The notes: generated from the sequence alone by a model not told the origin. A stretch of 64,000 nucleotides of DNA from Ignavibacteriales bacterium (GCA_037441705.1 JBBIRR010000001.1:160001-224000), one strand, 5' to 3'. Positions 46,516-64,000 are shown, numbered from the stretch's first letter. Numbers and translations are program-made.

Positions 46516-46582
46516 GATCTGTTGCTCCTTGGAGTCTTCTTCGGTACTTTGAATTGGGAGCTTCTGATTTCCAGCTCCACCG

Positions 46583-46659
46583 TCATCTTGTGCCGACGAG
46601 GAATCCAAGGATCCCCTGCCCGCCTTCTTTCCATCAGCCGCGGCATTCACCGCTTCCTT
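46583..46659 (-). pseudogene. Relic duplicate of the preT 3' end
   Basis: KEAVNAAADGKKA versus preT KEVVNAAADGKQA; 34/40 nt identical to 47175-47214. Confidence 0.8.
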
Positions 46660-46871: not shown

Positions 46872-46879
46872 CGTTCTCC

Positions 46880-48953: not shown

Positions 48954-48992
48954 TCCTCAATCCTCCTTTCTTTGATTAACCGTCCATCTGCA

Positions 48993-49048
48993 GACCCAGA
49001 ATCCAGCAGCCACAATCTTGAATCCAGCATCCACAATCCGGATTCAAC
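48993..49048. repeat. Heptamer array (AATCCAG-like) upstream of the four-helix-bundle gene
   Basis: gacccag aatccag cagccac aatcttg aatccag catccac aatccgg; abuts the aminotransferase stop at 49044. Confidence 0.8.
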
Positions 49049-50384: not shown

Positions 50385-50443
50385 GTTCTTGAGTCTTAGC
50401 GCGACGTGAAGGATCGGTGGTTTCTTGTGATGGTAATTATTCT

Positions 50444-50484
50444 GGTTCGGGGTTCGGCGTTGGGGTTCAAGGTTCAAGGTTCAG
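50444..50484. repeat. Solo heptamer array (GGTTCRR)
   Basis: ggttcgg ggttcgg cgttgg ggttcaa ggttcaa ggttcag in the intergenic region. Confidence 0.75.
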
Positions 50485-50501
50485 GCACATGTGCACATCT
50501 C

Positions 50502-51371
50502 TCACATTTCGACAAGCTGTTTGTACAGGTCGGGCCGGCGATCCCGGAAGAACTGCCACACCTCCCGCACTTCTTTGATCATGTCCAGATCGAGATCGGC
50601 AACAACCAGCTCATCTTTGTCGCGACTGGCTTGCGCGATGATTTTGCCGCGCGGGTTGCAGAAGTAACTCTTGCCATAAAACTCGCCGATGTTCCACGGC
50701 GCTTCGATGCCGACCCGATTGATCGCGCCGACGAAGTACCCGTTGGCAACGGCATGTGCCGGCTGTTCCAACTCCCAGAGATATTCCGAGAGTCCCGCGA
50801 CCGTTGCCGACGGATTGAAAACTATCTCCGCCCCATTTAGTCCGAGGCAGCGCGCCCCTTCCGGAAAATGGCGATCATAACAAATGTACACACCCACTTT
50901 AGCGTAGCGTGTGCTGAACACCGGGTAGCCGAGATTGCCGGGACGAAAATAGAATTTTTCCCAAAATCCCGGATCCACCTGCGGGATGTGCGTCTTGCGA
51001 TACTTACCGAGATACGATCCATCGGCATCGAGCACGGCAGCGGCGTTGTAATACACTCCCGTCATCTCTTCTTCGTAGATCGGTACAACCATCGCCATCT
51101 TATATTTCTTTGCAAACTCCTGCATCAGCTTCACCGTCGGTCCGTCGGGGATCTTTTCCGTCATGTTGTACCATTTGGATTTCTGTTCCGCGCAGAAGTA
51201 GGGTCCGTAGAAAATTTCCTGCAAGCAGAGAATCTGCACGCCTTTCTTCCCCGCCTCCTCGATGAAGGGAATGTGCTTGTCAATCATCGCCTTCTTGATG
51301 ACGTCGAGAGGCCGGTCGTTGGAGGTGGCAATGGAACACTGGATCAAACCGCAGGTGACGGTACGTGGCAT
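50502..51371 (-). CDS. Nitrilase-superfamily amidohydrolase, probable beta-ureidopropionase
   Basis: Catalytic E-K-C triad: LCLQEIF, YRKTHIP, ICYDRHFPEG; FWEKFYF.PG; first gene of the preTA-hydA operon. Confidence 0.88.
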   Translation of the reverse strand: MPRTVTCGLIQCSIATSNDRPLDVIKKAMIDKHIPFIEEAGKKGVQILCLQEIFYGPYFCAEQKSKWYNMTEKIPDGPTVKLMQEFAKKYKMAMVVPIYEEEMTGVYYNAAAVLDADGSYLGKYRKTHIPQVDPGFWEKFYFRPGNLGYPVFSTRYAKVGVYICYDRHFPEGARCLGLNGAEIVFNPSATVAGLSEYLWELEQPAHAVANGYFVGAINRVGIEAPWNIGEFYGKSYFCNPRGKIIAQASRDKDELVVADLDLDMIKEVREVWQFFRDRRPDLYKQLVEM

Positions 51372-51439: not shown

Positions 51440-52777
51440 TTATCGAACAAGAACCAGTTTCTGAACTCGCAGTTCATTCTCCGCTTCGAGCCGATAGAAA
51501 TACACCCCCGACGGAATATCGGACAGATCAAGATGCACGGCATAATAGCCCGCGCTCTGATGTTCCGCAACGAGCGTGCGAACCGGACGACCGAGAAGGT
51601 CGTACACGCGTAACAACACATGTGCAGCGCGCGGAATTCCGTAGCGGATTGTCGTTGACGGATTGAGAGGATTGGGATAGTTCTGAAACAGTACCAGTGT
51701 CGAAGGCACCAGGGGCTGCATCGAAGCCACAGAAGATGGATTGAAATACCGCACGGCACGCCTCCAGAAAATCGCCACCGTGTCCGTACCGGAAACGACG
51801 CGTGCCGAGATCGTGTCGGTTCCCGGAAGCGTCGGGGCGGTGAGCGTCGCGGAGTATGTGCCATTCCCGTTGTCGCTGACGGCCCCGAGGGTTCCGGCTC
51901 CTGTGTTGCGCAGCAGGATCGTTCGTCCCGGCGCAAGCAGCGTGTCGGAATTGTTTTTGGGGATGATCAGAATCGCTGCCGCAGACGTTCCGTTGGCCGG
52001 CAGAGAATCGGGCGTGACAGCAAGTTGTGAGAGGAACGGATCGACACGCGTGCGAAGCGAATCCTTCCATTGATCGAACATCGTGTGCAGGATGGTGATC
52101 GGATCGCTTCCGACGGGGGAATCCGGAACGATCTTCTGCAGGTAGGGAACGGACCCGTCGCCGATGCGCACAACTTTGATGAACGACGAACGAGACGACG
52201 TGCCGCGCGAGGCACACCGCGTATCCGCCCCGATGATTTTCGCCGCTTCGAGTGTTGCCATCAAACGATCGGCAAGCGGTCCCGGCGTGCGCAGGAAGGT
52301 ATTCTTCATCGTGTCAATAATCATTTGGCCGGAGAGAATGTTGCCCTGAACGGCGTACCCTCTCCCCGTTGCGTGATTCTTGTAGTCTATGCAATTCACG
52401 CCGGTGTAGGCGGCGCTTTCGCCGCGTCGACGAAGATCAACCACGCCGTACTGACGGATCGTGGGATTGTTCTGCGCATCGTGCGCAACCATGTAATCAA
52501 TGATCTGCTGGGGGGAATCGCCGGCAAGCATGCGCTGTCGCGCCGTAAGCTGATTGGCTTCAAGGTAGGAGGCCTGCGTGTGGATAGCGCCGATCCCTTC
52601 CAGCACGTCGCTGAGAATAAACGCCCCGACGCCGTTGATGGCACCAACGCACGATGCCCCTGCGCTGCCGATTTCGCCCGTCACGGTGTCCACCGCAACA
52701 ATGGAAAAGGTATCCTGCGCAACGGCAGACCCCAAAAGAACAAACACCAACCCCACGCATGCAAGCTCTTTCTTCAT
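51440..52777 (-). CDS. Secreted DUF1028 (Ntn-hydrolase-like) protein with invasin/Big_1 domain and T9SS CTD
   Basis: Signal peptide then TFSIVAVD..TGEIGSAGASC, TQA, RQYGVVD, QGNIL; LPANG...DNGNGTYSATLT (Big_1); LFQNYPNPLNPSTTIRY. Confidence 0.85.
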   Translation of the reverse strand: MKKELACVGLVFVLLGSAVAQDTFSIVAVDTVTGEIGSAGASCVGAINGVGAFILSDVLEGIGAIHTQASYLEANQLTARQRMLAGDSPQQIIDYMVAHDAQNNPTIRQYGVVDLRRRGESAAYTGVNCIDYKNHATGRGYAVQGNILSGQMIIDTMKNTFLRTPGPLADRLMATLEAAKIIGADTRCASRGTSSRSSFIKVVRIGDGSVPYLQKIVPDSPVGSDPITILHTMFDQWKDSLRTRVDPFLSQLAVTPDSLPANGTSAAAILIIPKNNSDTLLAPGRTILLRNTGAGTLGAVSDNGNGTYSATLTAPTLPGTDTISARVVSGTDTVAIFWRRAVRYFNPSSVASMQPLVPSTLVLFQNYPNPLNPSTTIRYGIPRAAHVLLRVYDLLGRPVRTLVAEHQSAGYYAVHLDLSDIPSGVYFYRLEAENELRVQKLVLVR

Positions 52778-52852
52778 GGTTATCACCGAAGCTGGTGGGT
52801 TGAAGTGGCTACGTACAACGATAGTAGAATTGGGGAAGGAAAGCAAGAATGC

Positions 52853-53312: not shown

Positions 53313-55850
53313 CTAACGTATGAGCAGCATCTTCCTGGTCAAGACAAAACGTCCCGCGCGTAGTTGATAGAAGTACACACCGCTGGCCAACCCAGTGCCG
53401 TCAAACCTCACCGACTTGAACTGGGGGCCTGTGGCGCCATGACGCTTCTCGCCACCTGCATCCTGAACCCCATCCACCAGTGTTGCCACCTCGCGCCCTT
53501 GCACGTCGTACACCTTCAACGACACAAGACCTGAACCGTGAAACTTGAATCGAATGGTTGTCCAGGGGTTGAACGGGTTTGGATAGTTCTGTTCCAGCAC
53601 CATGACTGCCGGCTGCTCAGGTTCCTCTCCCACAGCAGTAAGGGAGCTGAGAAGTCGTCGCTCATACACACCATTGCTGTGCGTCGCTGCACGCAGCACG
53701 CGGTGGGATGGCGAGACGACGAGGTCGGCAACAATCACAGCTTCGGGCAATCCGTCGTTGAAGCTCATCCACGCTGCGCCGCCATTGGTCGAGACGAACA
53801 CGCCGACGTCCGTCCCAACATACACATGATTCGTATTGAACGGATCAATCGCAACCGCGGTGGCAGGCACATTCAGCAGCGTGCCGCTGATGTCACTCCA
53901 GCTCAGGCCGCAATCCACTGACTTTGCGACCCGCATCGTATCGAAGCCACCGATGGCCACGTACACAACACGCGCATCGCGCGGGTCAACGGCGATATCC
54001 ATGTAGTAGCGGTTCGGAAGCGGACCGGTGACATCCTCCCACGTGATTCCGCCGTTCGTCGTCCTGAACAGATGAGGGCGTGCGATGCCCGGCACCGTAC
54101 CCACGAAAACCGTGTCGGGATGTGTCGGCGCAATCGCCATCGAAAGCATCGGATTGCCGTCGAGCGGCACACCGGCGTTGGTTGCAAACCAGCTCGTGCC
54201 CCCGTTCGTCGTCTTAGAAACGACGCTTCTTCCAAAATAGAGGACGTTTGGATGCGACGCCGAAAGAACAAACGGAGTATTCCAGCATGCCGCCCCGCTG
54301 AAATTCCCCGGCAGCGAACTGAACGAGACGCCGCGGTTCGTTGATCGGTAGATGCTGCCGCCTCCGCGGTTTCCCGCATACTGAATCAGATCGTTCTGTT
54401 GATTGATCGCCGTCCACCCAATCTCATCCACGCCGCCCGAGGGCCATGAAAGCGAGCCGACGTATTTGAAGCCGAAATGATCCTGCACGTGGCCCAATGC
54501 CATGAACGAATCCTGCGCCGAGCAGGAGAAGCCGTTGTAGAACTGCGACGTCAGCAGTCCCTGACTCGCGTTCTCATACGTCTCGCCGAAGTCCGTCGAA
54601 CGGTAGACGCCGCCATCACTCACCACATACAGTATGTTGGGGTTGGTAGGATGATGAGCGAAGTTGTGCATGTCGTAGTACGCACCGGATCGCTGCGAAG
54701 AGGTGACGCCGCCGTTGGTTGACTTGAAAATGTACACGCCGCCTCGCACCACCTGATTTGCGTCGGTGGGGTGCACGGCAGCGAATTGCGAGTACCAGCC
54801 CTGGACGCCGTAGAGCGCCTCGCTGCTCAGAAGTGTCCAGCTTGCACCGAAGTCCGTCGTGCGCCAGAGTGTGCCCGTACCCGTGGTGCTATCGGCAAGA
54901 CTTGCGAGTACGTACAGCGGGTTCGACCTTTGTTGCGAAAGCATCCCTTTGCCCGAGAACGCCGGCAGTCCGCCGATCATCGAAAAGGATTCGCCGCCAT
55001 CGGTCGAGCGATAGACGCCGCGACCCGGTGAGCCGAAGTTGCCGCATGTTGCAAGCACCTGTGTTGTATCCCACGCGTTGATGACGATGTCCTGTGCAAG
55101 CAGCGCGCTCAGTGTCTGATACCATGTTGCACCGGCATCCTTCGATTTGAAAATCCCTTCCGAGGTTGCTGCAAACACTGTGTTCGGGTTCAGAGGATTC
55201 AGCCTGATAGCTTGCACCCCGCGCTGTTGATGGTACGACCAGTCGAGGCTCCTCGTCCATGTTGCGCCGCCGTCGGTGGTCTTCAAAACGCCCATGCCGT
55301 AACTTCCGCGCGTCGTACGGATGACGATGCCGCCCGTCGAACCCTGGTAGCGATACACCTCCCCCGTCCCGATGTAGATGGTGTTCGTGTCGGTTGGATG
55401 GATGGCAATGGCGTTCACACCAAGCACCGGGTAACCGGTTTCCACTCGATGCCAGTCCCCGCCGAGCCCGCCGGTAAACGAGCGCCACAACCCGCCGCTT
55501 GCCGAGCCTGCGTAAACCGTCGAGGGATTCAGCGGATTCAACGCCACGGCGAGCATTCTTCCCGCGAAGTTGATCGGGCCGATCGATCGCCACATATCGA
55601 GCGCCGACGAGCGCGCCTCGGTCATTGTCTGCTTCACGTTTTCGAAAGCCCGGTACTGGGCATCGGGCGAGATATCGGCAAACGGGTACGCGCGCGACTG
55701 CGTCCACAACTGCAGCGCCTGCAGTGCATCCGAAGCGCTTTCCCGATCTCTGAGATCAAGCGGCAGAACGAACGTGAGAAAGAAGAGCAGAACCGAAAGA
55801 AGAATGAACTGTTTACGGTAATTGGTCACCATGCGATCAGACTGGCTCAC
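53313..55850 (-). CDS. Secreted BNR/VPS10-type beta-propeller protein with T9SS CTD
   Basis: WRSIGP...GR, YAGSASGGLW, many S/T.DGG.TW Asp-box repeats, YVGTDVGVF, ATHSNGVY; CTD LEQNYPNPFNP.TTIRF. Start may be ATG 55832. Confidence 0.88.
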   Translation of the reverse strand: MSQSDRMVTNYRKQFILLSVLLFFLTFVLPLDLRDRESASDALQALQLWTQSRAYPFADISPDAQYRAFENVKQTMTEARSSALDMWRSIGPINFAGRMLAVALNPLNPSTVYAGSASGGLWRSFTGGLGGDWHRVETGYPVLGVNAIAIHPTDTNTIYIGTGEVYRYQGSTGGIVIRTTRGSYGMGVLKTTDGGATWTRSLDWSYHQQRGVQAIRLNPLNPNTVFAATSEGIFKSKDAGATWYQTLSALLAQDIVINAWDTTQVLATCGNFGSPGRGVYRSTDGGESFSMIGGLPAFSGKGMLSQQRSNPLYVLASLADSTTGTGTLWRTTDFGASWTLLSSEALYGVQGWYSQFAAVHPTDANQVVRGGVYIFKSTNGGVTSSQRSGAYYDMHNFAHHPTNPNILYVVSDGGVYRSTDFGETYENASQGLLTSQFYNGFSCSAQDSFMALGHVQDHFGFKYVGSLSWPSGGVDEIGWTAINQQNDLIQYAGNRGGGSIYRSTNRGVSFSSLPGNFSGAACWNTPFVLSASHPNVLYFGRSVVSKTTNGGTSWFATNAGVPLDGNPMLSMAIAPTHPDTVFVGTVPGIARPHLFRTTNGGITWEDVTGPLPNRYYMDIAVDPRDARVVYVAIGGFDTMRVAKSVDCGLSWSDISGTLLNVPATAVAIDPFNTNHVYVGTDVGVFVSTNGGAAWMSFNDGLPEAVIVADLVVSPSHRVLRAATHSNGVYERRLLSSLTAVGEEPEQPAVMVLEQNYPNPFNPWTTIRFKFHGSGLVSLKVYDVQGREVATLVDGVQDAGGEKRHGATGPQFKSVRFDGTGLASGVYFYQLRAGRFVLTRKMLLIR

Positions 55851-55987: not shown

Positions 55988-56323
55988 TTATGGTGTTTTT
56001 GATTCGAGCGCCGATATCCGCTGCTCATGGTCATCCAGTGTGCTCTTTGTTTTGGAGTAGTCGCGCCGGATTTCTTGAACAAGGTTTGTAAAATGGTACT
56101 GCATCTTCTCGTCCAACCGGGCGACAGTTGCGTCCGTGTAGGCCTTGAGCGTCTCCACGACGACCCCCAGCTTGGCATTGAGCTTTTCTTCAAGCTTTTC
56201 TTCAAGCTTTCGTTCGAGCTTTTGCTCGATCTTTTTCTCAAGGCGTGCACCAAAAGCAGCAAGCTCCTTCTGGAGAATAGCCTTTGTTACGATTTGACCG
56301 TTGATGGGTTTTTGTTTTGCCAT
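55988..56323 (-). CDS. Small coiled-coil hypothetical protein with (L/I)ExK repeats
   Basis: LEKKIEQKLERKLEEKLEEKLNAKL encoded by 12-bp repeats; ends LDDHEQRISALE. Confidence 0.65.
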   Translation of the reverse strand: MAKQKPINGQIVTKAILQKELAAFGARLEKKIEQKLERKLEEKLEEKLNAKLGVVVETLKAYTDATVARLDEKMQYHFTNLVQEIRRDYSKTKSTLDDHEQRISALESKTP

Positions 56324-56424
56324 CGAAATACTGAAGGTACGTGCGGCGTGTTCCGTTCGACCCAATGTACAATACACAATGTCGGAAGTCAAGGAAAATT
56401 CTTGAATCGCATCCGCCCGTTTCC

Positions 56425-57669
56425 TCACACATTCCTGTGGCAGCTGTAGCACGCCGGACTCGCATAGATGTATCCCTGTCGGTTCCGATGCTTATCGTCC
56501 ATGCGGGTTTGTTCGTGCTCATGGCAACTGAGGCAGGTGAAGACTTGATATTGTGTCGGGGTAGGATGGCATTGGGTGCAGGACGTCCACTTGTTGCGGT
56601 GTTTTCCCGAATAGATTCTGAACGAGCGCGCATCGTGATCGAACGTCGAAGGTTGCCACGCCGTTGTGGTATGACACGGCGTGCAGTCGTGGCTGAATTG
56701 TGAGGCGACGTGATTCGGATTCGCCGCCTGCTCGAATTGCTGCGCGTGACACTGGTAGCAGTCCTGGTACGTCAGAGCGTAGTTGTTGTTGATGTGACAC
56801 GATGCGCACACGGTGGTCGCGTGCCTGCCGGTAAGAGGGAAGCCCGTGCTGGCGTGGTCGAACGTTGCCGGTCGCCAGGTAGACTGCGTGTGGCAGGAGC
56901 GGCACTCGGTGGAGAACCCGTTTGCGGCGTGTGCAGGATTCGTTGCGTTCGCGTACTCCGAGCGATGACAGCCAACGCACGCTGCATCCAATCCGCGGAA
57001 ACGATTGCCGGCGTGACACTGTGAGCAGGCAGTTGCGGCGTGTGCACCCACAAGCGGAAAGGCTGTGCGCGCATGATCGAACCCCGTGCCCCAGCTTCGC
57101 GCGGCCGGCTGATGGCACTGCAGGCAATCGGTAGAAAACTGCGCCGCCGCATGATTGGGCGATGCCGTCTGCGCGTACTCCCTGCGGTGGCACGCCACAC
57201 ACTCGATCGGTGTGCCGGCATACAACTGCTGGGCAGCATTGGTATGACATGCTTCGCATGTGAGCGAGGCATGCCTGCCAAGCAGGGCAAACCGCGTCGC
57301 CTGATGTTTCTGCAGCATGTCGGTGACTTTCCACGATGTTGTGGTGTGGCACCGCACGCAGAGCATACCGAGTTCTGCCTTGTGCACATCCGTGTGGCAG
57401 GCGGTGCACGCGGAAGAGGTTTTGACAAACTTCAACCCGGCGTGGCAGCTCGCACACTTCACAGCCTCATGTGCGCCGGTGAGTGCAAAGCCCGTTGATG
57501 CGTGGCGAAACGTCGCGTCCCTTTTCATCTTCCACGAGTCCGTGCTATGACACGATGCGCAGGCTAAGCGTATCGGGCCGTGCGGAGATTCCTGAGAAAC
57601 AAGAAAGGATGGAAGCTGGGTGAGAAAAACCGTCATCATCGTCCGGCGCAAAATCTTCCCTGTCGTCAT
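56425..57669 (-). CDS. Multiheme c-type cytochrome, 16 CxxCH motifs
   Basis: AGGAGG RBS, signal peptide, 16 CxxCH counted, F.H..T.F.L.G.H repeats; paralogue of 60662-63232. Confidence 0.93.
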   Translation of the reverse strand: MTTGKILRRTMMTVFLTQLPSFLVSQESPHGPIRLACASCHSTDSWKMKRDATFRHASTGFALTGAHEAVKCASCHAGLKFVKTSSACTACHTDVHKAELGMLCVRCHTTTSWKVTDMLQKHQATRFALLGRHASLTCEACHTNAAQQLYAGTPIECVACHRREYAQTASPNHAAAQFSTDCLQCHQPAARSWGTGFDHARTAFPLVGAHAATACSQCHAGNRFRGLDAACVGCHRSEYANATNPAHAANGFSTECRSCHTQSTWRPATFDHASTGFPLTGRHATTVCASCHINNNYALTYQDCYQCHAQQFEQAANPNHVASQFSHDCTPCHTTTAWQPSTFDHDARSFRIYSGKHRNKWTSCTQCHPTPTQYQVFTCLSCHEHEQTRMDDKHRNRQGYIYASPACYSCHRNV

Positions 57670-57689
57670 CGTTGTTCCTCCTTTCCTGG

Positions 57690-59009
57690 TTAGGCTGCCG
57701 CTGCCTGTGCTTCGACCTCCACCGGTCGCATCTTGATGCCGCATCGTTTCAGCAGTTCGGTCGGCATCTCTCCTCCAGCAAACACAAAGACGAAGTCGTT
57801 GCGCAAGTTGTGCATAATGTTCCCGCGCTCCTGCACAATCACGGCGTCGGACTTGATCTCCACAACCTGCGAGGAGAAGATGACGTTGAGCTTGCCGGAT
57901 TCAATGAACTGCTGCACCTTCTGTTCGTTCTTCTCCTTCAACCGCACGAATTCTTCCTTGCGATAACTTATCGTCACGGTATTTCCGACCTGACTTGCAA
58001 GGCCGATAGCAGCTTCCACCGCGCTATCACCGCCGCCCACGACGAGGATGTGTTTGTGCTTGTAGGTTTCGGCTTCGATCAATCTATACATCACCTTCGT
58101 GAGCTGCTCGCCCGGCACGCCCAGTTTGCGCGGGCTGCCGCGCCGACCCAACGCAAGCATAACGTTGGCGGCTCGGAATTCCGCACCTTGCGTCTTCACG
58201 ATGAAGTGATCGTTCAACGCGTGGATCGCCTCCACCTTCTGGCCGGTCAGGATGTTCAGCCGGAACCGCCCGACAATGTCCTGCCAGATGGCAAGCAATT
58301 CTTCTTTCGAGATTTCAGAAACTTTCAGCTTGCCGTAGAGCGGCAGCTCGACGGGGCTGGTGAGGACGAGCTTTTGTCGCGGATAGTGGAGAATCGCGCC
58401 GCCGATTTCGTCCTGCTCGAGCACGACATAGCGCATGTTTTTTGCTTGTGCTGCAAGCGCGGCGGCAAGTCCGGCAGGCCCCGCACCGACAATCACGACA
58501 TCGAAATCGGCCACGTGTTTCGAGCGACGCGACGAGGCAATGTGCTCGAGACCTTTGATTCCCTGATGCACCGCGTTCTTGATCAAGCCGATCCCGCCCA
58601 ATTCACCCACAATATAGAGTCCGGCGACGTTCGTTTGAAAGTTATCGTCGTAGAACGGAATTTCCATCCCCTGGCGCGGCGTACCGAATGCAAGGGTCAC
58701 GGCCCCGACGGGACACACATCGGCACACAGACCGTGACCGACGCACTTTGTGCCGTTGATGATGGCCGGTCGCCCCTGAACAATTCCGAGCACATGCTCG
58801 GGACAGGCGCGCACGCAGCTCGCGCAGCCGATGCAATCCGTCAGATCGAAATGCGGATGCAGCGTCACAGGAGCCGTAATGCCCATTCGCCGACTCTTCT
58901 CATATTTTTCCGCGGCCTCACGATGATGGCGGGCAACGCGACGCCAGTACGGAACGGCAACCAGGCTCACAAGAATCAGGAAAATGACCGACGTGTAGAT
59001 GGTCTCCAT
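57690..59009 (-). CDS. Membrane-anchored 2x[4Fe-4S] / thioredoxin-reductase-like FAD-NAD(P) oxidoreductase
   Basis: N-terminal TM helix; CIGCASCVRACP; CVGHGLCADVCP; DVVIVGAGPAGL; ILVVGGGDSAVEAA; SYRK. Confidence 0.88.
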   Translation of the reverse strand: METIYTSVIFLILVSLVAVPYWRRVARHHREAAEKYEKSRRMGITAPVTLHPHFDLTDCIGCASCVRACPEHVLGIVQGRPAIINGTKCVGHGLCADVCPVGAVTLAFGTPRQGMEIPFYDDNFQTNVAGLYIVGELGGIGLIKNAVHQGIKGLEHIASSRRSKHVADFDVVIVGAGPAGLAAALAAQAKNMRYVVLEQDEIGGAILHYPRQKLVLTSPVELPLYGKLKVSEISKEELLAIWQDIVGRFRLNILTGQKVEAIHALNDHFIVKTQGAEFRAANVMLALGRRGSPRKLGVPGEQLTKVMYRLIEAETYKHKHILVVGGGDSAVEAAIGLASQVGNTVTISYRKEEFVRLKEKNEQKVQQFIESGKLNVIFSSQVVEIKSDAVIVQERGNIMHNLRNDFVFVFAGGEMPTELLKRCGIKMRPVEVEAQAAAA

Positions 59010-59066
59010 CTCGTTATCTCTCCTGCTCGATGTGCATGCTTGTGAGTGAAATGAAAATCAACGCCC

Positions 59067-60665
59067 TCAAAACCTCACGCTCAGTTCAGCGAAAACGGAG
59101 TTCGATATCGTGCCGTAGCCGTCCAGCCTATCGAACGTCGTCATCAAGGTAAGGGACTGAGTGATGAAGACGAGAAGGTCGGCGCCGAGGGTTGTACTGT
59201 GGTCGCGCTGGTTTGTCTGACGCACGGTGTAACCGCTACGTTGGATGCGCGCGGTGACATCGAACAGCGCGCCGAACGCCCGCTGCACGGCAACACCGTA
59301 GCCCGATGCGTGCGTGTAGCGGTTCGCATGCAGGTTCACCGTCGAACGCACGGCAATGCCTGAGGAAAGAATGTCGTTGAATGAAAGGGATGAGATGTTG
59401 GAGTATTCCCTGCCGAAGGCTGCCTCCGGTGCGTTGCGCGGCCGGTAGGTGTTTGTCAGAGCGATGCCCGCGGGAAGGAACCAATTGAACGTCAGGCTCA
59501 ATCCGGATCGCAGATCATCAATGAGCAGCGAATCGGGGATGTCGCGGACCGCGCGGAAGCTGTAATACGGACGCGCAGCGTCGGCACCGACTCCTACGCT
59601 GAGCGACCCTGCGATGCGATACGTGAGATGGATATAGGCAGCGGTCAAACGCGGCGAGAGAATGAACTCGCTCCCCGCCTTCTTCCGCAAATCTGTCTCG
59701 ACATTCCCATACACAAAGAGGCTGCTGCCAATCGAAGCGTTGAGCAGCAGGCTCGCCACTTCGCGGTCGAGAGCGGAACGATAGTACGTCCTCGCATACG
59801 CCGCACCAACGGAGAGTTGCGACGGCGCGGGCACCGACACTTGCGCGAACAGGGCGACCTTCTTGTACTCGGTGGAGATACTCCGGAGCGTGAAGTCCGG
59901 CTGATACCCAAGCGTCGTTCCGACAAGCAGGGGACCGAGCTTTGCCGAAGCCATCAGCCCGTCCACATAACCGATGGACGGCGCATAGATGGGGATGATC
60001 CTTCCAACGGAGAGAATCCGATCACCGTCGTCGTATGTTACCGAAAGTCCGTAGATGCGGGATTGGTTAACCGCGCGCTTCGAAAACGGACTCCGATTGC
60101 CGATGGTGAGCGAGCGAAGGTTGGCAAGGATTTCGACCTGCAGCGGCACATCACGCAGCCCGCCGCGCAAGTTCAGCACAACACCCGGTTGCGTAATGTT
60201 GAAGGCAGAGTTCTCATAAAGCGACGTGAAGTACTGTGCACTCACGCGTCCCTGCAGCGTGAACGGCGAGCGTTCTGCGATGGATGACGATCGAACCGGC
60301 TGAGGATTCGGCAGCGGCTCGCCGGACGTTCGCTCCAGTTGGGGTGCGGCGGGGTCGGCTTTCTTCTGCTCGAGCAGGATGACTCTCGCCCACACCTCAT
60401 CGCCGACCACAATCTGACGCAGCGCGCTCACGACCCTGCATACCGACGACTTGGAACTCACAGCGTACACCTTCAGCACCGCAGTGGTATCCCGTCCGGC
60501 AACGACGTACAGCAGCGTCGAGTCCTGCACGCCGCTTCCGCGACCCAGCGAGGTGTACACACTCCCGCCCGCAAGGTAGGTAACGGTTCCACGAACAATC
60601 TTCTCTTCCGCCTGCAGCATGCACGCCGCAAGCATTCCTATCACCACCACGGTCTTCTTCATCAC
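59067..60665 (-). CDS. Putative outer-membrane beta-barrel (porin-like) protein with N-terminal small beta domain
   Basis: Signal peptide; Pro-rich linker; alternating amphipathic strands; C-terminal ...VFAELSVRF (terminal Phe typical of beta-barrels); lies between cytochrome genes. Confidence 0.7.
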   Translation of the reverse strand: MMKKTVVVIGMLAACMLQAEEKIVRGTVTYLAGGSVYTSLGRGSGVQDSTLLYVVAGRDTTAVLKVYAVSSKSSVCRVVSALRQIVVGDEVWARVILLEQKKADPAAPQLERTSGEPLPNPQPVRSSSIAERSPFTLQGRVSAQYFTSLYENSAFNITQPGVVLNLRGGLRDVPLQVEILANLRSLTIGNRSPFSKRAVNQSRIYGLSVTYDDGDRILSVGRIIPIYAPSIGYVDGLMASAKLGPLLVGTTLGYQPDFTLRSISTEYKKVALFAQVSVPAPSQLSVGAAYARTYYRSALDREVASLLLNASIGSSLFVYGNVETDLRKKAGSEFILSPRLTAAYIHLTYRIAGSLSVGVGADAARPYYSFRAVRDIPDSLLIDDLRSGLSLTFNWFLPAGIALTNTYRPRNAPEAAFGREYSNISSLSFNDILSSGIAVRSTVNLHANRYTHASGYGVAVQRAFGALFDVTARIQRSGYTVRQTNQRDHSTTLGADLLVFITQSLTLMTTFDRLDGYGTISNSVFAELSVRF

Positions 60666-63232
60666 ACATTCCTATGGCAACTGTAACATGCTTGACTGTT
60701 GTACTGATAGTTCGGAACGTTCTGATGCTCGCGATCCATCTCGCTCTGGCGATGTTCGTGACAACTGATGCAGGTAAAGATCTGGTACTGCCCGAGGGTC
60801 GGGTGACATTGTGAGCAGGAGGTCCACTTCCCGCGGTGTTTGCCCGAATAAATCCTGAAATACTGCAGGTCGTGGTTGAATGTTGACGGCCTCCAGGCAG
60901 TCGTCGTGTGGCACGGTGTGCAATCGTGGCTGAACTGGAGCGTCACGTGATTGGGGTTCTGCGGCTGTGCATACTGCGCAGCATGGCATTGATAACAATC
61001 CTGATACGTCAAGTTGTAGTTGTTGTTGACATGACAGGAGACGCACGGCGTCGTTACGTGCCGTCCCGTGAGCGGGAATGCAGAGTTGTTATGATCGAAC
61101 GATGCCGGACTCCACGCCGCCGTTGTGTGACACTCTGTGCAGTTCTGACTGAAGTTGCGAGCCACGTGGTTTGGGTTGGTCGTGTTGTTGAAGTCGGTGA
61201 GATGACAACCCACACACGCCGTCGGCAAACCCTGGTACTGGTTGTTCACATGGCACTGGTTGCACGACGTTGCCAGATGCGCCCCGGTCAACGGAAACGC
61301 CGTGTTCGCATGATTGAACGTGGACGGCAGCCACGCCGTCGTCGTATGGCACGGCGCGCAGTCGTGATTGAAGTTGCCCAGCACGTGGTTCGGATTCGTC
61401 GGCAATGCATACTGCGCCGTGTGACAGGGATAGCAGTTCGTGTACTGCAGCTGATAATTCCCGCTCACGTGGCAATCCTGACACTGAATCGTTGCGTGCC
61501 GCCCCGTCAGCGGGAAGTTTGTGCTTGCATGATTGAACGACGCCGGATGCCACGCCGATTGAGTGTGGCACGTCAAACAATCGTGACTGAACTGTCCCTG
61601 CTGATGGTTGGGATTGGTCGTATTGTTGAAGGCCGTCGCATGGCAATCCCAGCACGTGTGCGGAAGATTCTGATACTGATTGTTGCGATGACATTGGTTG
61701 CACGTCACCGTCTGATGCGCGCCAACTAACGGAAACGCCGTGGTCGCATGATTGAACGTGGACGGCAACCATGCCGTCGTCGTGTGGCACGGCGCGCAGT
61801 CATGATTGAAGTTGCCCAGCACGTGGTTCGGATTCGTCGGCAATGCATACTGCGCCGTGTGACAGGGATAGCAGTCCGTGTACTGCAGCTGATAATTCCC
61901 GTTCACGTGGCAATCCTGACACTGAATCGTTGCGTGCCGCCCCGTCAGCGGGAAGTTTGTGCTTGCATGATTGAACGACGCCGGATGCCACGCCGAGGTT
62001 GTGTGACACTCCGTGCAATTCATACTGAAGCCTGCCGTCTGGTGGTTCGGATTCGTCGCGTTGTTGAAGTTCGACCTGTGGCAATCCACACAATTAGAGG
62101 GGATGGTGGTGTACTGCCCGTTCCGATGACATTGCTCGCAGCTGATGGCAAGATGTGCCCCGGTCAGCGGGAACGCCGTTGTGCTGTGATTGAAAGTCGA
62201 GGGCCGCCATGCAGTCTGCGAATGGCACGTTGCACATTCGGTCGGAAAGTTGCCCGCGGTGTGGTTGGGGCTCGTGGTGCCGTTGTACGCCGGGCGATGA
62301 CAGGCCACGCACTCCGTCGGCCTGCCGGCAAATTGATTATCCGCGTGACAGGCGCGGCATTGTTGGACGTGATGCGCGCCTACAAGAGGAAAGAGAGTTT
62401 GGTTGTGATCGAACCGCGCACCCTCCCACGTTGCAGTCGTATGGCAGCTTTGACATTCGGAGGAGAACCGCGCCGCCGCGTGGTTCGGATTGGTTGTTGA
62501 AGCAAACGCCGCTTGATGGCACGCAGCACATTGCTGAGGCGTGGAGCTAAACGCCGGTGTTGTGTGACAATCCGCGCAGGCGGTGGTTCGGTGCGCGCCC
62601 GTGAGGGGAAACGCCGTCCCTTCGTGCGTAAACCCTGTGCCCCACCGAAACGCCGTCACCTGATGGCATTGCTCGCAGTTAGGAGAAAAGCGAGCGAACG
62701 CGTGATTGGGATTCGTCGTGCGAGCGTAATCGGAACGGTGACAGCCGGCGCAGACGGTCGGCGTCCCCGCAAACAGCTTCTGCGCCGCGTTGGTGTGGCA
62801 CATCTGGCATGCGAGCGTTGCGTGCTTGCCCAACAGCGGAAAGCGCGTCAGTTGATGCTTCTGCACCATGTCCCCCACCCGCCAATTATCCGTCGAGTGA
62901 CAGCGTGTACAGCCTGTGCCCAACTCGCCGCGATGGACATCCGTGTGGCAGGAGAAGCAATCCGATGAGGCCTTTGCAAATTTCAATCCTGCGTGACAGG
63001 ACGAACATTGCAGCGAAGTGTGTTGCCCTTGCAACACGAAGCCGGTTGCGGCATGATCGAAGCTTGCATCTTTTCTCAGCTTCCACGTCTCAGTGTTGTG
63101 ACAGCTCGCGCAGGCATACCGAATCGGCCCGTGCGGCGATTCCTGAGCGTACACGTTCTCACCCACACATATCGCCAGCGTCAACAGACCGGCAACGAAC
63201 AGGGCTTGTCCTGTGTGTGCTCTGTTAACCAT
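60662..63232 (-). CDS. Large multiheme c-type cytochrome, 34 CxxCH motifs
   Basis: Signal peptide (VYA-QESPHG); 34 CxxCH counted; tandem 73-aa tri-heme modules. Confidence 0.94.
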   Translation of the reverse strand: MVNRAHTGQALFVAGLLTLAICVGENVYAQESPHGPIRYACASCHNTETWKLRKDASFDHAATGFVLQGQHTSLQCSSCHAGLKFAKASSDCFSCHTDVHRGELGTGCTRCHSTDNWRVGDMVQKHQLTRFPLLGKHATLACQMCHTNAAQKLFAGTPTVCAGCHRSDYARTTNPNHAFARFSPNCEQCHQVTAFRWGTGFTHEGTAFPLTGAHRTTACADCHTTPAFSSTPQQCAACHQAAFASTTNPNHAAARFSSECQSCHTTATWEGARFDHNQTLFPLVGAHHVQQCRACHADNQFAGRPTECVACHRPAYNGTTSPNHTAGNFPTECATCHSQTAWRPSTFNHSTTAFPLTGAHLAISCEQCHRNGQYTTIPSNCVDCHRSNFNNATNPNHQTAGFSMNCTECHTTSAWHPASFNHASTNFPLTGRHATIQCQDCHVNGNYQLQYTDCYPCHTAQYALPTNPNHVLGNFNHDCAPCHTTTAWLPSTFNHATTAFPLVGAHQTVTCNQCHRNNQYQNLPHTCWDCHATAFNNTTNPNHQQGQFSHDCLTCHTQSAWHPASFNHASTNFPLTGRHATIQCQDCHVSGNYQLQYTNCYPCHTAQYALPTNPNHVLGNFNHDCAPCHTTTAWLPSTFNHANTAFPLTGAHLATSCNQCHVNNQYQGLPTACVGCHLTDFNNTTNPNHVARNFSQNCTECHTTAAWSPASFDHNNSAFPLTGRHVTTPCVSCHVNNNYNLTYQDCYQCHAAQYAQPQNPNHVTLQFSHDCTPCHTTTAWRPSTFNHDLQYFRIYSGKHRGKWTSCSQCHPTLGQYQIFTCISCHEHRQSEMDREHQNVPNYQYNSQACYSCHRNV
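61306..61996. repeat. Intragenic direct repeat, 253 bp, offset 438 bp
   Basis: 61306-61558 versus 61744-61996; six substitutions counted by eye. Confidence 0.9.
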
Positions 63233-64000
63233 TGCGGATGCTTCCTGGTGTATGACATGATTCGCACGTTGATGGCATCGGCTTGAAGCGAACGAACGCC
63301 GTCGCCCCCCGGCGTTCTTCGCGATGGCACCGGCGGCACGGCACTCGCACATGAGCGCCCGTCAACGCAAACGTGCTGTGGGTATTGTGATCGAAAATCA
63401 GATTCTTCCATCCCTGTGGCTGGTGACAGCGGGCGCAATCGCTGGAGCCGTTGACGGCAAACTGACCCGCATGCGCATCCTCGTGGCACGCCGCGCACCG
63501 CCTGTCGGTTCCTTTGTACTGCGGCACCTCGAATCCTCCAACCTTCTTCGCGCGATGACAGGCGCCGCATCTGACGCTCGCATGTTTACCCACGAGGGGA
63601 AAGTTCGTCTTTGCATGATCGAAACTCTCGGGCCGCCAGTCGGTCGTGGAATGACATGCGTCGCAGCTTCTGCCTTTCATCTCCTGAGCAAACTGCCCTC
63701 CGTGGCGATCGCGATGGCACGCCTCGCAGCGCAGGTCGGCAAAGTGAAAGCCGCGCCGCCCGTCGTCGCCGCGCACGTGACAATCCTCGCAGAGCACCGC
63801 CGCATGCGCTCCCGTCAGCGGAAAACGCGCAGCACGATGAGCAGCCACGGTAAACGTCGCAGGAACGAACCCGAACGGCGTGTGGCACGATTCACACCGA
63901 TTGCCGAAGCGGGCGGCAAAATCTCCACGATGATAGTCCACGTGGCAATCAGTACACGCATTGTGTGCCAACTTCAGGGCCGAACCTGCGCGGGAGGTTC
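63225..64000 (-). CDS. Multiheme c-type cytochrome (partial; at least 10 CxxCH; continues past the window edge)
   Basis: Frame open to the edge (...TSRAGSALKLAHNACTDCH); 10 CxxCH visible; same F.H...F.L.G.H module type; overlaps the next start. Confidence 0.9.
   Translation of the reverse strand, partial: TSRAGSALKLAHNACTDCHVDYHRGDFAARFGNRCESCHTPFGFVPATFTVAAHRAARFPLTGAHAAVLCEDCHVRGDDGRRGFHFADLRCEACHRDRHGGQFAQEMKGRSCDACHSTTDWRPESFDHAKTNFPLVGKHASVRCGACHRAKKVGGFEVPQYKGTDRRCAACHEDAHAGQFAVNGSSDCARCHQPQGWKNLIFDHNTHSTFALTGAHVRVPCRRCHREERRGATAFVRFKPMPSTCESCHTPGSIRNG

What the first reader, a model, noticed from the sequence alone, without database searches (positions are those of the whole stretch)
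56425..63232. Two paralogous cytochromes with the same caps that differ by exactly six 73-aa tri-heme modules: a length-tunable heme wire
Seen: both mature proteins start QESPHGPIR.ACASCH and end FRIYSGKHR.KWTSC.QCH...CYSCHRNV. One has 16 hemes, the other 34; the 18-heme difference equals six modules (6 x 73 = 438 aa; the ORFs differ by 442 codons). Each module supplies three CxxCH and three extra His (F.H, G.H, NPNH), matching one distal ligand per heme. Inference: bis-His wires of two lengths with shared docking ends, for example a short periplasm-spanning and a long outward-reaching wire using the same porin.
Basis: partly seen in the sequence, partly recalled or inferred. Interest (0 to 1): 0.75.

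Follow-up and report, generated by a model that had tools for sequence, protein, structure and literature searches.

The report
Modular heme-wire cytochromes beside a porin
Two related secreted cytochromes, built from the same end-pieces plus three or nine copies of a 73-residue three-heme unit, sit in one porin-cytochrome operon and belong to a very large, uncharacterised family of heme wires whose length changes in steps of three hemes.

Summary
Two minus-strand genes (56425-57669, 60662-63232) encode cytochromes with 16 and 34 CxxCH motifs. Both mature proteins start at QESPHGP, and their lengths are 389 and 827 aa, a difference of 6 x 73.

Both follow one plan: a 4-heme N-cap, n tri-heme modules (n = 3 or 9), and a 3-heme C-cap. 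Each segment has at least one conserved extra His per heme.

Of 128 homologues carrying both caps, 123 have heme counts equal to 1 mod 3, from 16 to 79.

The kind of system is already described. The operon matches the predicted 'PCC3' porin-cytochrome cluster (He et al. 2017, PMC5566968): a di-heme-b-like membrane protein, a ~20-heme cytochrome, a variable large cytochrome and an outer-membrane barrel. Here it occurs in Bacteroidota/Ignavibacteria-type genomes with an added Fe-S flavoprotein. Tri-heme wires such as GSU1996 are also known.

The short gene is a lineage-specific duplicate. The 'periplasmic versus outward' roles and use of one porin are untested.

Verdict: a real, neat, new member of a known kind. 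Interest is moderate.

The parts
56425..57669 (-). Short capped modular multiheme cytochrome c. The precursor is 414 aa and the mature protein (from QESPHGP) is 389 aa, with 16 CxxCH arranged as N-cap (4), 3 tri-heme modules and C-cap (3).
   Evidence: Pfam Cytochrome_C7 E 3.8e-19, CIII and c3_2. AF2 pLDDT 88.0. Orthologues of 72-80% identity all have 16 motifs (P0023, P0060, P0110).
56659..57096 (-). The two 73-aa tri-heme modules of the short cytochrome.
57690..59009 (-). Membrane-anchored Fe-S flavoprotein. It has an N-terminal TM helix followed by a positively charged stretch, a 2x[4Fe-4S] ferredoxin domain and a Pyr_redox_3 FAD/NAD(P)-binding domain.
   Evidence: Pfam. NCBIfam closest is YpdA-like, below cut-off. 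TM at 1-26. Present after the barrel gene in 10 of 10 related loci; in Emticicia it sits next to the membrane-protein gene instead.
59067..60665 (-). Outer-membrane protein of an unnamed family: signal peptide, small N-terminal beta domain (21-96), disordered linker (106-128), a 22-strand beta-barrel (135-531) and a C-terminal Phe.
   Evidence: AF2 pLDDT 91.1, pTM 0.70. Foldseek matches only generic ushers and porins, TM 0.2-0.45. No Pfam, NCBIfam or PDB sequence hit. Ninety homologues: 84 of 520-555 aa, 4 shorter (315-439 aa, two of them labelled partial by their source) and 2 longer (574, 624 aa). Its start overlaps the stop of the long cytochrome gene by 4 nt.
60662..63232 (-). Long capped modular multiheme cytochrome c. 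The precursor is 856 aa and the mature protein is 827 aa, with 34 CxxCH arranged as N-cap (4), 9 tri-heme modules and C-cap (3).
   Evidence: Pfam Cytochrome_C7 E 1.4e-35 with 7 stretches. The closest homologue, P0375 (79% identity), also has 34 motifs; P0434 (64%) has 28.
60896..62647 (-). The eight 73-aa tri-heme modules of the long cytochrome. Modules 3-8 alternate two subtypes (A: G-A-H ... FNN.TNPNH; B: G-R-H ... Y.[DN]CY.CH).
61051..62229 (.). 438-nt (two-module, six-heme) tandem DNA repeat inside the long gene.
   Evidence: TRF period 438, 2.2-2.3 copies, 81-82% matches. Direct-repeat families with 219-nt spacing and a 300-nt pair at 85%.
63225..63998 (-). 3' part (257 codons, running off the window) of the conserved ~20-heme cytochrome that precedes the modular cytochrome in related clusters.
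   Evidence: 61% identical over 256 aa to residues 294-549 of the 549-aa, 20-CxxCH protein of L002. Pfam c3_2 and C7. With start 63232, the long cytochrome gene overlaps its end by 8 nt.

Best explanation
The two genes are paralogous members of a very large, uncharacterised family of Sec-exported c-type cytochromes in which every heme is probably bis-His ligated. The plan is a 4-heme N-cap, then n tandem tri-heme modules of about 73 aa (class III, c3/c7-like), then a 3-heme C-cap. Here n = 3 and n = 9.

They lie in one apparently co-transcribed cluster of the 'PCC3' porin-cytochrome type. In relatives the order is: a 5-TM membrane protein with two WX3HX13H motifs (probably di-heme b), a ~20-heme cytochrome, the capped modular cytochrome, a 22-strand outer-membrane barrel, and a membrane-anchored cytoplasmic Fe-S flavoprotein. 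This lineage adds a second, short capped cytochrome at the end.

Inferred mechanism: electrons pass between the inner-membrane module and the ~20-heme periplasmic cytochrome. They then move along the capped modular cytochrome, which is held in or at the barrel, to an extracellular acceptor; the direction could be the reverse. The reach and capacity of that last wire are set by module number. Module number changes by unequal recombination or duplication of one- or two-module units. The 16-heme paralogue is an alternative wire with the same ends.

Shown: sequence architecture, conserved ligand census, the 3n+1 law, operon conservation, the barrel fold, and the paralogue history.

Inferred: heme ligation, linear shape, location, binding to the barrel, and direction of electron flow.
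For: Architecture and His census.

Family size: 5911 hits (227-725 aa) and 7867 hits (470-1498 aa) at E<=1e-3 among 8000 scored candidates each. The C-cap alone hits 813 representatives.

The 3n+1 law: 123 of 128 homologues with both caps have counts equal to 1 mod 3. These 128 were picked by regex out of 388 distinct listed proteins.

Operon: 10 loci were found with the barrel as query.
- The Fe-S flavoprotein follows the barrel in 10 of 10.
- A capped cytochrome lies immediately upstream in 9 of 10. One of these (L001) is cut by the contig end with 10 motifs visible, and L009 is too short to tell. The 8 complete ones have 16, 22, 25, 31, 31, 37, 40 and 43 motifs.
- The ~20-heme cytochrome and the membrane protein with 2x WX3HX13H + SGxxG are present in 8 of 10; the other two contigs end too early.

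The same cluster is on plasmid pEMTOL02 of the cultured Emticicia oligotrophica DSM 17448, with a 40-motif capped cytochrome.

Barrel: AF2 pLDDT 91, 22 strands.

Class III affinity: Pfam C7/CIII/c3_2. The module profile hits 16-heme HmcA 1z1n at E 5.4e-5 and 9-heme 19hc at 0.004.

Gene spacing: overlaps of 8 and 4 nt and gaps of 57 and 20 nt, with no minus-strand terminator-like site.

Duplication history: the short clade has SH-aLRT 100 and the long clade 99, both inside one Bacteroidota/Ignavibacteria group. A 438-nt tandem repeat lies in the long gene.

Literature: PCC3 definition, low aa:heme ratio, repeats and the wire idea (PMC5566968, passages). PCC3 AF2 models are 'long and mostly linear', with 21/24/27 and 10-35 hemes (PMC9900912, passages). 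Here the ratio is 24.3 aa per heme in both mature proteins.
Against: - No experiment exists for any member.
- Sequence homology to the proteobacterial PCC3 reference proteins was not tested, because no reference sequences were within reach.
- The membrane-protein gene lies beyond the window end, so its presence here is inferred from relatives.
- Foldseek found no PDB match for the cytochrome model (0 with E<=10), and I could not measure its shape.
- The barrel resembles solved barrels only generically (TM 0.2-0.45), with no specific likeness to MtrB.
- No export route across the outer membrane is evident. There is no T9SS C-terminal domain on either cytochrome, although neighbouring genes carry one.
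- 5 of 128 capped homologues break the 3n+1 rule (24, 27, 56, 57, 60).
- The lists of homologues are score-ranked and length-bounded, so they do not give the true length distribution.
Confidence: 0.65

Rival explanations
1. One reading: the 16-heme protein spans the periplasm and feeds the barrel from inside, while the 34-heme protein docks with the same end on the outside and reaches outward.
For: The paralogues share N- and C-caps (64-70% identity). There is one barrel gene between them. The short gene is kept with all 16 motifs in relatives of 72-80% identity.
Against: The short gene is present in only the window and 1 of 10 related loci (L001), plus one further contig inferred from shared contig length. 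The general system therefore works without it. A conserved ~20-heme cytochrome is already there as the likely periplasmic leg. In L008 a 16-heme capped protein sits in the barrel-adjacent slot itself, which argues for interchangeability rather than complementary positions.
Confidence: 0.15
2. The capped cytochromes are periplasmic electron-storage proteins (capacitors), as proposed for GSU1996, and do not pass through or dock to the barrel. Module number then sets charge capacity, not reach.
For: GSU1996-type tri-heme-domain wires are periplasmic and discussed as capacitors (PMC10138318 passages). Capacitor roles are also suggested for PCC3 cytochromes (PMC9900912 and PMC7399161 passages). No outer-membrane export signal is visible.
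Against: The modular cytochrome gene sits immediately upstream of the barrel in every locus that reaches that far and overlaps it in the window. The caps are strongly conserved while the middle varies, which suggests specific partners at the ends.
Confidence: 0.15
3. The short paralogue is a functionally redundant spare, or a differently regulated copy, with no length-related meaning.
For: It is lineage-specific and sits at the operon's distal end.
Against: It has stayed at 16 motifs with intact caps in four relatives of 72-82% identity, while the long paralogue varies (28 and 34) in the same lineage. That pattern suggests selection on the short length.
Confidence: 0.2
4. The repeat number is an assembly artefact of a repetitive gene.
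For: Tandem repeats can be collapsed or expanded in metagenome assemblies.
Against: The repeat copies are only 81-85% identical at DNA level. The reading frame is intact, with exact 73-aa register. An independent 79%-identical homologue has the same 34 motifs.
Confidence: 0.03

Closest known systems
'PCC3' porin-cytochrome gene cluster (He et al. 2017, PMC5566968; Gallionellaceae survey, PMC9900912). It is predicted from genomes; the passages I read give no biochemical characterisation.
   Same: - An outer-membrane barrel gene lies next to two very large multiheme cytochromes. The published medians are 21 and 34 hemes; here the numbers are ~20 and 34.
- The aa:heme ratio is low (published 22-39; here 24.3).
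- The cytochromes have internal repeats and variable heme numbers.
- There is a ~300-aa 5-TM membrane protein with SGXXG and two WX3HX13H motifs, present in 8 of 10 related loci and in Emticicia.
   Different: - It was described mainly in Alpha-, Beta- and Gammaproteobacteria. The supplementary text I could search names no Ignavibacteria, and names Bacteroidetes only in a Cyc2 table.
- Here the hosts are Bacteroidota/Ignavibacteria-type genomes.
- Here an Fe-S flavoprotein gene is a constant member (10 of 10 loci).
- A second, short copy of the variable cytochrome is added in this lineage.
- The strict 4+3n+3 rule is not stated in the passages I read.
- Sequence homology to the reference PCC3 proteins was not tested.
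GSU1996-type 'nanowire' cytochromes of Geobacter (polymers of c7-type tri-heme domains; PDB 3ov0).
   Same: A single chain of tandem tri-heme domains of about 70-80 aa. The solved example is a linear, crescent-shaped 12-heme wire (PMC10138318 passages). Pfam Cytochrome_C7 matches the modules here.
   Different: - GSU1996 has one His-Met heme per domain. Here each module has three conserved His and no conserved Met.
- The module profile matches GSU1996 pieces only at E 0.096-5.6.
- This family has distinct 4-heme and 3-heme caps and reaches 16 to at least 79 motifs in the strictly capped set. One 94-motif protein has both cap motifs but failed my end-of-chain test.
- GSU1996 is periplasmic and is not porin-linked, the latter from recall.
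Class III high-molecular-weight cytochromes: 16-heme HmcA (1z1n) and nine-heme cytochrome c (19hc).
   Same: They are the best sequence-profile matches among solved structures (E 5.4e-5 and 0.004). They are c3-like units joined in one chain. NCBIfam HmcA gives a weak hit (E 1e-6 to 2e-10, far below cut-off).
   Different: They have no regular 73-aa repeat, no caps and fixed heme numbers. HmcA belongs to a sulfate-respiration membrane complex.
MtrCAB / MtoAB porin-cytochrome complexes.
   Same: The logic is the same: a multiheme cytochrome insulated by an outer-membrane barrel. There are weak Pfam MtrC/F domain II/IV and TIGR03508 DmsE-family similarities.
   Different: The DmsE-family score is 27.7 bits against a cut-off of 192. 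The barrel here has 22 predicted strands and no family match; MtrB has 26, from recall. Heme numbers here are much larger and modular.

Membership tests
PCC3 porin-cytochrome cluster (He et al. 2017) | An outer-membrane beta-barrel gene adjacent to multiheme cytochrome genes. | tested here: met
   The AF2 barrel has 22 strands, pLDDT 91.1. It is flanked by cytochrome genes in the window and in the related loci.
PCC3 porin-cytochrome cluster (He et al. 2017) | Two large multiheme cytochromes with very low aa:heme ratio (published 22-39; medians 21 and 34 hemes). | tested here: met
   The mature ratios are 827/34 and 389/16, both 24.3. The upstream cytochrome in L002 is 549 aa with 20 motifs, and its 3' part is in the window.
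PCC3 porin-cytochrome cluster (He et al. 2017) | A ~300-aa inner-membrane protein with five TM helices, SGXXG, and two WX3HX13H motifs. | tested here: inconclusive
   The gene would lie beyond the window end, so it cannot be seen here. It is present with all motifs in 8 of 10 related loci (the other two contigs are too short) and in Emticicia.
PCC3 porin-cytochrome cluster (He et al. 2017) | Sequence homology to the reference PCC3 proteins (for example of Sideroxydans lithotrophicus ES-1). | not tested
The plasmid collection gave only Emticicia and a distant Methylophaga membrane protein.
c7-type domain polymers (GSU1996 family) | Tandem tri-heme domains of about 70-80 aa. | tested here: met
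   Pfam Cytochrome_C7 matches with 7 stretches.
c7-type domain polymers (GSU1996 family) | One His-Met coordinated heme per domain. | tested here: not met
   Each module has three conserved non-motif His. There is no Met at ligand columns, and 9 of the ten 73-aa modules have no Met at all (long module 3 has one). Ligation itself is inferred from sequence.
c7-type domain polymers (GSU1996 family) | Significant sequence similarity to GSU1996 domains. | tested here: not met
   The module profile against PDB gives 3oue E 0.096, 1rwj 0.62, 3ov0 2.5 and 3ouq 5.6. The whole protein against PDB gives 0 hits at E<=0.01.
Pfam class III cytochromes (PF14522 Cytochrome_C7, PF02085 Cytochrom_CIII, PF14537 Cytochrom_c3_2) | Score above the Pfam gathering threshold. 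| tested here: met
   The long protein scores 121.4, 88.0 and 67.6 bits. The short protein scores 68.7, 47.9 and 41.9 bits. The cut-offs are about 23-25 bits.
DmsE/MtrA decaheme family (TIGR03508) | Score above the NCBIfam cut-off (192.2 bits). | tested here: not met
   27.7 and 23.0 bits.
MtrB/PioB-type or other named porin families | A family profile match or a close structural match. | tested here: not met
   There is no Pfam or NCBIfam family and no PDB sequence hit at E<=10. The best Foldseek matches are ushers and substrate porins at TM 0.2-0.45. The Atlas neighbours are unnamed clusters.

The most novel reading that the evidence does not exclude
One barrel, two interchangeable wires. 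The cell would load the same 22-strand barrel with either a 16-heme or a 34-heme cytochrome that share docking caps, switching the reach of its outer-membrane conduit; I estimate roughly 15 versus 30 nm, by analogy with the 12-heme, 12-nm GSU1996. In addition, the conserved membrane-anchored Fe-S flavoprotein and the di-heme-b-like membrane protein would form a split, NOX/ferric-reductase-like machine. That machine would move electrons from cytoplasmic NAD(P)H straight across the inner membrane to the heme wires, bypassing quinones. The flavoprotein gene sits beside the membrane-protein gene in Emticicia. An unrelated FNR-type flavoprotein takes the same place in a Methylophaga plasmid.
Probability: 0.15. 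Interest if true: 0.8.

Novelty: new member of a known kind. Interest (0 to 1): 0.45.

Why it matters
Predicted porin-cytochrome conduits with giant cytochromes are widespread, yet in the papers I searched I found no structure or biochemistry for any PCC3-type cytochrome.

This locus shows their building rule unusually cleanly: fixed ends plus n three-heme units. Two lengths sit side by side in one operon, and there is a fresh two-module duplication in the DNA.

The rule holds from 16 to at least 79 hemes in 123 of 128 relatives. That gives a simple way to annotate these proteins, to predict their length, and to design truncated or extended versions for structural and conductivity work.

The same cluster lies on a plasmid of a cultured, non-pathogenic freshwater bacterium (Emticicia oligotrophica DSM 17448). 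This makes the questions of where the wires sit, whether length matters and which way electrons flow open to experiment.

Tried and rejected
- Complex prediction (barrel plus short cytochrome) was not available and nothing was folded. Binding to the barrel therefore stays untested.
- Foldseek of the cytochrome model against PDB gave 0 matches at E<=10. This gives no information on fold kinship, and the coordinates are not exposed, so I could not measure whether the model is elongated.
- phmmer of the short cytochrome against PDB gave 0 hits at E<=0.01. The barrel profile against PDB gave 0 hits at E<=10.
- The first related-loci run, with a 37-sequence barrel alignment, failed for lack of a conserved stretch. 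I repeated it with 13 closer sequences.
- NCBIfam gave no family above cut-off for either cytochrome or the barrel.
- Counting only CxxCH left 9 of 54 capped long homologues at 0 mod 3. Inspection showed that a CX3CH replaces the middle C-cap motif in L003-L005. Counting CX2-4CH resolved most of these cases.
- The 154-aa ORF 55988-56452 downstream of the short gene has no similarity to the ORF at the same place in L001, so I did not treat it as part of the system.
- Papers checked without relevant content: PMC11475568, 10.64898/2026.05.27.727921, 10.1101/2025.05.29.656830.
- A search for 'Emticicia' plus 'multiheme' found no paper. A search for triheme + tandem + multiheme cytochrome + porin found 4 papers, none on this family judging by title and abstract.
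- For He et al., the held text of Supplementary Tables 3 and 4 is very short (233 and 1,134 characters) and Table 4 gave only its legend. The figure showing their repeats is an unreadable PDF. I therefore could not check whether their heme counts follow 3n+1.
- An assembly artefact was considered and rejected (see rival explanations).

Full report
**1. Observation**

Four complete genes and one cut gene lie head to tail on the minus strand:

| Coordinates | Product |
|---|---|
| >63998-63225 | multiheme cytochrome, cut by the window end |
| 63232-60662 | long cytochrome |
| 60665-59067 | 532-aa protein with no Pfam match |
| 59009-57690 | Fer4 + Pyr_redox_3 protein |
| 57669-56425 | short cytochrome |

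- The long ORF has 34 CxxCH motifs and the short ORF has 16. Neither has a CX3-4CH motif.
- Both have QESPHGP directly after a signal-peptide-like stretch. From there the proteins are 827 and 389 aa, a difference of 438 = 6 x 73.
- The gaps between heme motifs are identical at the N-terminal end (35,16,16,34,19,25) and at the C-terminal end (35,15,28). In between, the triplet 32/33-16-25 occurs twice in the short protein and eight times in the long one.
- Written in 73-aa register, the ten modules align without internal gaps and 20 columns are invariant. These are the three CxxCH plus W2, F6, H8, F13-P14-L15, G17, H19, P54, H56 and F61.

My one refinement is that the 76-aa unit before the first 73-aa module is also a tri-heme module. 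The plan is therefore N-cap (4 hemes), n modules and C-cap (3 hemes), with n = 3 and 9.

**2. Ligands**

Every segment has at least as many non-motif His as hemes. I used an alignment of the short protein with 138 homologues.

- Of the 18 non-motif His of the short protein, 16 are conserved in that alignment.
- Fourteen are His in at least 95% of non-gap rows.
- H97 and H332 are His in 73-75% of rows.
- No Met occurs at any of these columns.

This fits one distal His per heme, that is, bis-His throughout. It is inferred from sequence, not shown.

**3. How the two proteins relate**

- Identities between them are: N-caps 64%, first modules 63%, C-caps 70%. The short protein's last module is 75% identical to the long protein's last module.
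- The long protein's extra modules are internal. Its modules 3 to 8 alternate two subtypes.
- At DNA level there is a 438-nt (two-module) tandem repeat at 61051-62229, with 2.2-2.3 copies at 81-82% matches.
- Modules 4 and 6 are 97% identical in protein and 92% identical over 124 nt.
- The most recent growth of the long gene was therefore by two-module (six-heme) duplication.
- Copies that are only 81-85% identical, an intact frame, and a 79%-identical homologue with the same 34 motifs argue against an assembly artefact.

**4. The family and the steps-of-three test**

*Size and range.* The short protein has 5911 homologues at E<=1e-3 among the 8000 candidates scored (length window 227-725 aa). 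The long protein has 7867 (470-1498 aa). The sources name Bacteroidota, Ignavibacteria, Calditrichia, KSB1, Latescibacteria, Zixibacteria, Gemmatimonadetes and Acidobacteria (Bryobacteraceae, Terriglobales, Vicinamibacteria) MAGs.

*C-cap search.* The 77-aa C-cap alone, searched against 1.84 billion representatives, found 813 proteins at E<=1e-3. It also matched internal modules, with up to 28 stretches in a 2321-aa protein carrying 94 CxxCH. The cap is therefore itself a diverged module.

*Counting.* I counted CX2-4CH motifs in the three printed lists of 120, 150 and 120 proteins, which hold 388 distinct proteins. I picked by regular expression those with an N-cap motif, a C-cap motif and a CxxCH within 8 residues of the end. 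That gave 128 proteins.

- 123 of the 128 have counts equal to 1 mod 3. The counts are 16, 19, 22, and so on, with every step up to 58 populated, then 64, 67 and 79.
- The five exceptions have 24, 27, 56, 57 and 60 motifs.
- Without the cap filter, the fractions at 1 mod 3 are 100 of 120, 58 of 150 and 98 of 120.
- The lists are ranked by score and bounded by length, so they show the rule, not the true length distribution.

*Tree.* I built a tree from the cap regions of 32 proteins.

- Close relatives differ in module number. Two proteins with terminal branches of 0.03-0.05 have 22 and 25 motifs. Sister loci have 16 and 22 motifs.
- The 16-motif proteins form one clade of five rows (the window, L001 and its identical P0023, P0060, P0110; SH-aLRT 100). 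Their sisters have 18 and 19 CxxCH motifs.
- The long protein groups with P0375 (34 motifs) and P0434 (28 motifs) at SH-aLRT 99.
- The short gene is therefore a duplicate that arose within this lineage and has stayed short, while the long gene kept changing.

**5. Surroundings**

*The barrel.* The 532-aa protein has 90 homologues. Eighty-four are 520-555 aa, four are shorter (315-439 aa, two labelled partial by their source) and two are longer (574 and 624 aa). None carries a Pfam domain.

- AF2 on 89 sequences gives pLDDT 91.1 and pTM 0.70.
- The model has a signal helix, a small beta domain (21-96), a disordered linker (106-128) and 22 strands from 135 to 531. The chain ends in Phe.
- Foldseek finds only generic ushers and porins at TM 0.2-0.45.

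*Related loci.* Using the barrel to fetch loci from species genomes gave 10 loci, all from MAGs labelled Bacteroidota, Chitinophagales, Chlorobi or Ignavibacteria.

- The Fer4 + FAD protein follows the barrel in 10 of 10.
- A capped modular cytochrome lies immediately upstream of the barrel in 9 of 10. L001 is cut at the contig end with 10 motifs visible, and L009 is too short to tell.
- The eight complete ones have 16, 22, 25, 31, 31, 37, 40 and 43 motifs. This counts the CX3CH that replaces the middle C-cap motif in three of them.
- Upstream of that, 8 of 10 have a ~20-heme cytochrome of nearly constant size.
- Also upstream, 8 of 10 have a 257-295-aa membrane protein with two WX3HX13H motifs and an SGxxG motif. 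L002's shows four or five hydrophobic helices. The other two contigs end too early.
- The cut gene at the window's end is 61% identical to the C-terminal 256 residues of L002's 20-heme protein.
- Only the window and L001 carry the additional 16-heme gene after the flavoprotein gene. A third contig probably does too, judged from three hits that share a contig length of 11543.

*Operon signals.* Gene overlaps are 8 and 4 nt and gaps are 57 and 20 nt, and there is no minus-strand terminator-like site. This fits one operon, although the scan is only a consensus match.

**6. What is known**

*PCC3.* The gene set matches the 'PCC3' cluster that He et al. (2017; PMC5566968; abstract and passages read) proposed from genomes of iron oxidisers and other, mostly proteobacterial, species.

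- It comprises a porin, an 'extracellular' multiheme cytochrome (median 34 hemes, up to 85), a 'periplasmic' one (median 21), and a ~300-aa membrane protein with five TM helices, SGXXG and two WX3HX13H motifs.
- They reported aa:heme ratios of 22-39, internal repeats, and the idea of molecular wires.
- A Gallionellaceae survey (PMC9900912, passages) lists PCC3 periplasmic cytochromes with 21, 24 or 27 motifs and extracellular ones with 10-35.
- That survey also reports AF2 models that 'appear long and mostly linear', and four clusters with two periplasmic cytochromes.
- Arbour et al. (PMC7399161, passages) reported Ignavibacteria genomes with 33- and 40-motif cytochromes and porin-cytochrome clusters. 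They also showed variable motif numbers among homologous large cytochromes.

*Tri-heme wires.* Modular growth and pruning of multiheme cytochromes, and GSU1996 as a wire of four c7-type tri-heme domains, are discussed in PMC11492766 and PMC10138318 (passages). GSU1996 is crescent-shaped, has one His-Met heme per domain, and is described as 12 nm in the title of the cited structure paper.

*Profile matches.*
- Pfam Cytochrome_C7, CIII and c3_2 all match above threshold.
- A profile of the ten modules hits 16-heme HmcA (1z1n, E 5.4e-5) and the nine-heme cytochrome (19hc, E 0.004).
- The same profile hits GSU1996 pieces only at E 0.096-5.6.
- No NCBIfam model reaches its cut-off.

So the kind of system is already in print: a porin-linked giant modular cytochrome of variable length. 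This particular family has no structure, no name and no experiment that I could find.

**7. A cultured carrier and the flavoprotein**

*Emticicia.* A tblastn search of the plasmid collection with L002's membrane protein found plasmid pEMTOL02 of Emticicia oligotrophica DSM 17448 (Bacteroidota). Its gene order is:
- ccsA;
- the membrane protein (both motifs);
- an Fe-S flavoprotein 44.5% identical to the window's;
- a 23-motif cytochrome;
- a 40-motif capped cytochrome (41% identical to the long protein, with the same end spacings);
- a 538-aa protein weakly similar to the barrel (20% identity, E 6e-16).

There the flavoprotein gene sits beside the membrane-protein gene.

*Methylophaga.* On a Methylophaga plasmid, a distant membrane-protein relative has 5 TM helices, HX13H, WX3HX13H and SGxxG. 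It lies between a flavoprotein with FAD_binding_6, NAD_binding_1 and Fer2 domains and a 7-motif cytochrome.

*Topology.* The window's flavoprotein has an N-terminal TM helix followed by a run of Arg and Lys, so its redox domains should face the cytoplasm.

*Reading.* He et al. noted that the membrane protein resembles the heme-b domain of ferric reductases and NADPH oxidases. Together these points suggest, but do not show, that the flavoprotein and the membrane protein carry electrons from NAD(P)H across the inner membrane to the heme wires.

**8. Most likely mechanism**

*Shown:* the architecture, the conserved His census, the 3n+1 rule, operon conservation, the barrel fold, and the paralogue history.

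*Inferred:* bis-His ligation and a linear heme chain. The evidence is 24.3 aa per heme, tandem units, high local but moderate global AF2 confidence (pLDDT 88.0, pTM 0.57), and analogy to GSU1996 and to published PCC3 models. Also inferred are that the capped cytochrome sits in or at the barrel, and that module number sets reach or capacity.

*Length estimate.* By analogy with about 1 nm per heme in GSU1996, 16 and 34 hemes would give very roughly 15 and 30 nm. This is an estimate, not a measurement.

The general system lacks the short gene and has its own ~20-heme cytochrome. In L008 a 16-motif protein itself occupies the barrel-adjacent slot.

**9. What stayed unchecked**

- Model shape, because coordinates are not exposed and Foldseek gave 0 PDB matches.
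- Homology to reference PCC3 proteins.
- The membrane-protein gene of this genome, which lies beyond the window.
- Localisation and the export route. Neither cytochrome has a T9SS tail, although two neighbouring genes do.
- The direction of electron flow.
- The metagenome and viral contig collections, bioRxiv supplements, and the body of He et al.'s Supplementary Table 4 together with their repeat figure.

**10. Verdict**

It is a new member of a known, still only predicted, kind of system. The added points of interest are the explicit building rule, two lengths in one operon, a constant Fe-S flavoprotein partner, and a cultured carrier.

Noticed in passing
window 57690-59009 (-); L011 10839-12161; L012 8049-10642: A membrane-anchored 2x[4Fe-4S] + FAD/NAD(P) flavoprotein is a constant member of the cluster (10 of 10 loci). 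In Emticicia its gene sits beside the di-heme-b-like membrane-protein gene. On a Methylophaga plasmid an unrelated FNR-type flavoprotein (FAD_binding_6 + NAD_binding_1 + Fer2) takes that place next to a distant relative of the membrane protein and a 7-motif cytochrome. This suggests a split NOX/ferric-reductase-like NAD(P)H-to-periplasm electron path.
   Followed up: partly
L011 (NC_018749.1, Emticicia oligotrophica DSM 17448 plasmid pEMTOL02) 6887-18685: A cultured Bacteroidota strain carries the whole cluster on a 100-kb plasmid, preceded by a fused cytochrome c biogenesis gene (ccsA). RefSeq annotates the cytochromes only as 'cytochrome c3 family protein'. No paper in the library pairs Emticicia with multiheme.
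   Followed up: partly
L003 7071-9956, L004 4378-7851, L005 6663-9932 (C-terminal ends): In three related loci the middle heme motif of the C-cap is CX3CH (C-x-T-[AS]-C-H) instead of CxxCH. As a result, CxxCH-only counts fall one short of 3n+1.
   Followed up: yes
window 59067-60665 (-), residues 21-128 of the protein: The barrel protein has a conserved small N-terminal beta domain joined by a disordered linker of about 25 residues rich in Pro, Ser and Gln (pLDDT < 50). It may be a periplasmic docking domain.
   Followed up: no
window 56180-56242, inside ORF 55988-56452 (-): There is a 12-nt tandem repeat (3.6-4.7 copies) in a 154-aa ORF that overlaps the 3' end of the short cytochrome gene by 28 nt. 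The ORF has no credible Pfam match and no similarity to the ORF at the same position in L001, so it may not be a gene.
   Followed up: partly
window 51440-52846 (-) and 53313-55850 (-): Two proteins carry a Por_Secre_tail (type IX secretion) C-terminal domain. One combines DUF1028 with invasin domain 3; the other has sortilin/BNR repeats. They place the organism in the FCB group. The cytochromes themselves lack such a tail.
   Followed up: no
window 40723-51371 (-): An apparent reductive pyrimidine-degradation cluster: a cytosine/uracil-type permease, an amidohydrolase, a DHO_dh + Fer4 protein, a Fer4_20 + Pyr_redox_2 protein (together like the two subunits of dihydropyrimidine dehydrogenase), a class-III aminotransferase and a CN-hydrolase. 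A '23S rRNA-intervening sequence protein' gene lies among them.
   Followed up: no
window 16001-18000 and 40001-42000: Two 2-kb bins have unusually high AT skew (0.242 and 0.205), against mostly below 0.1 elsewhere.
   Followed up: no
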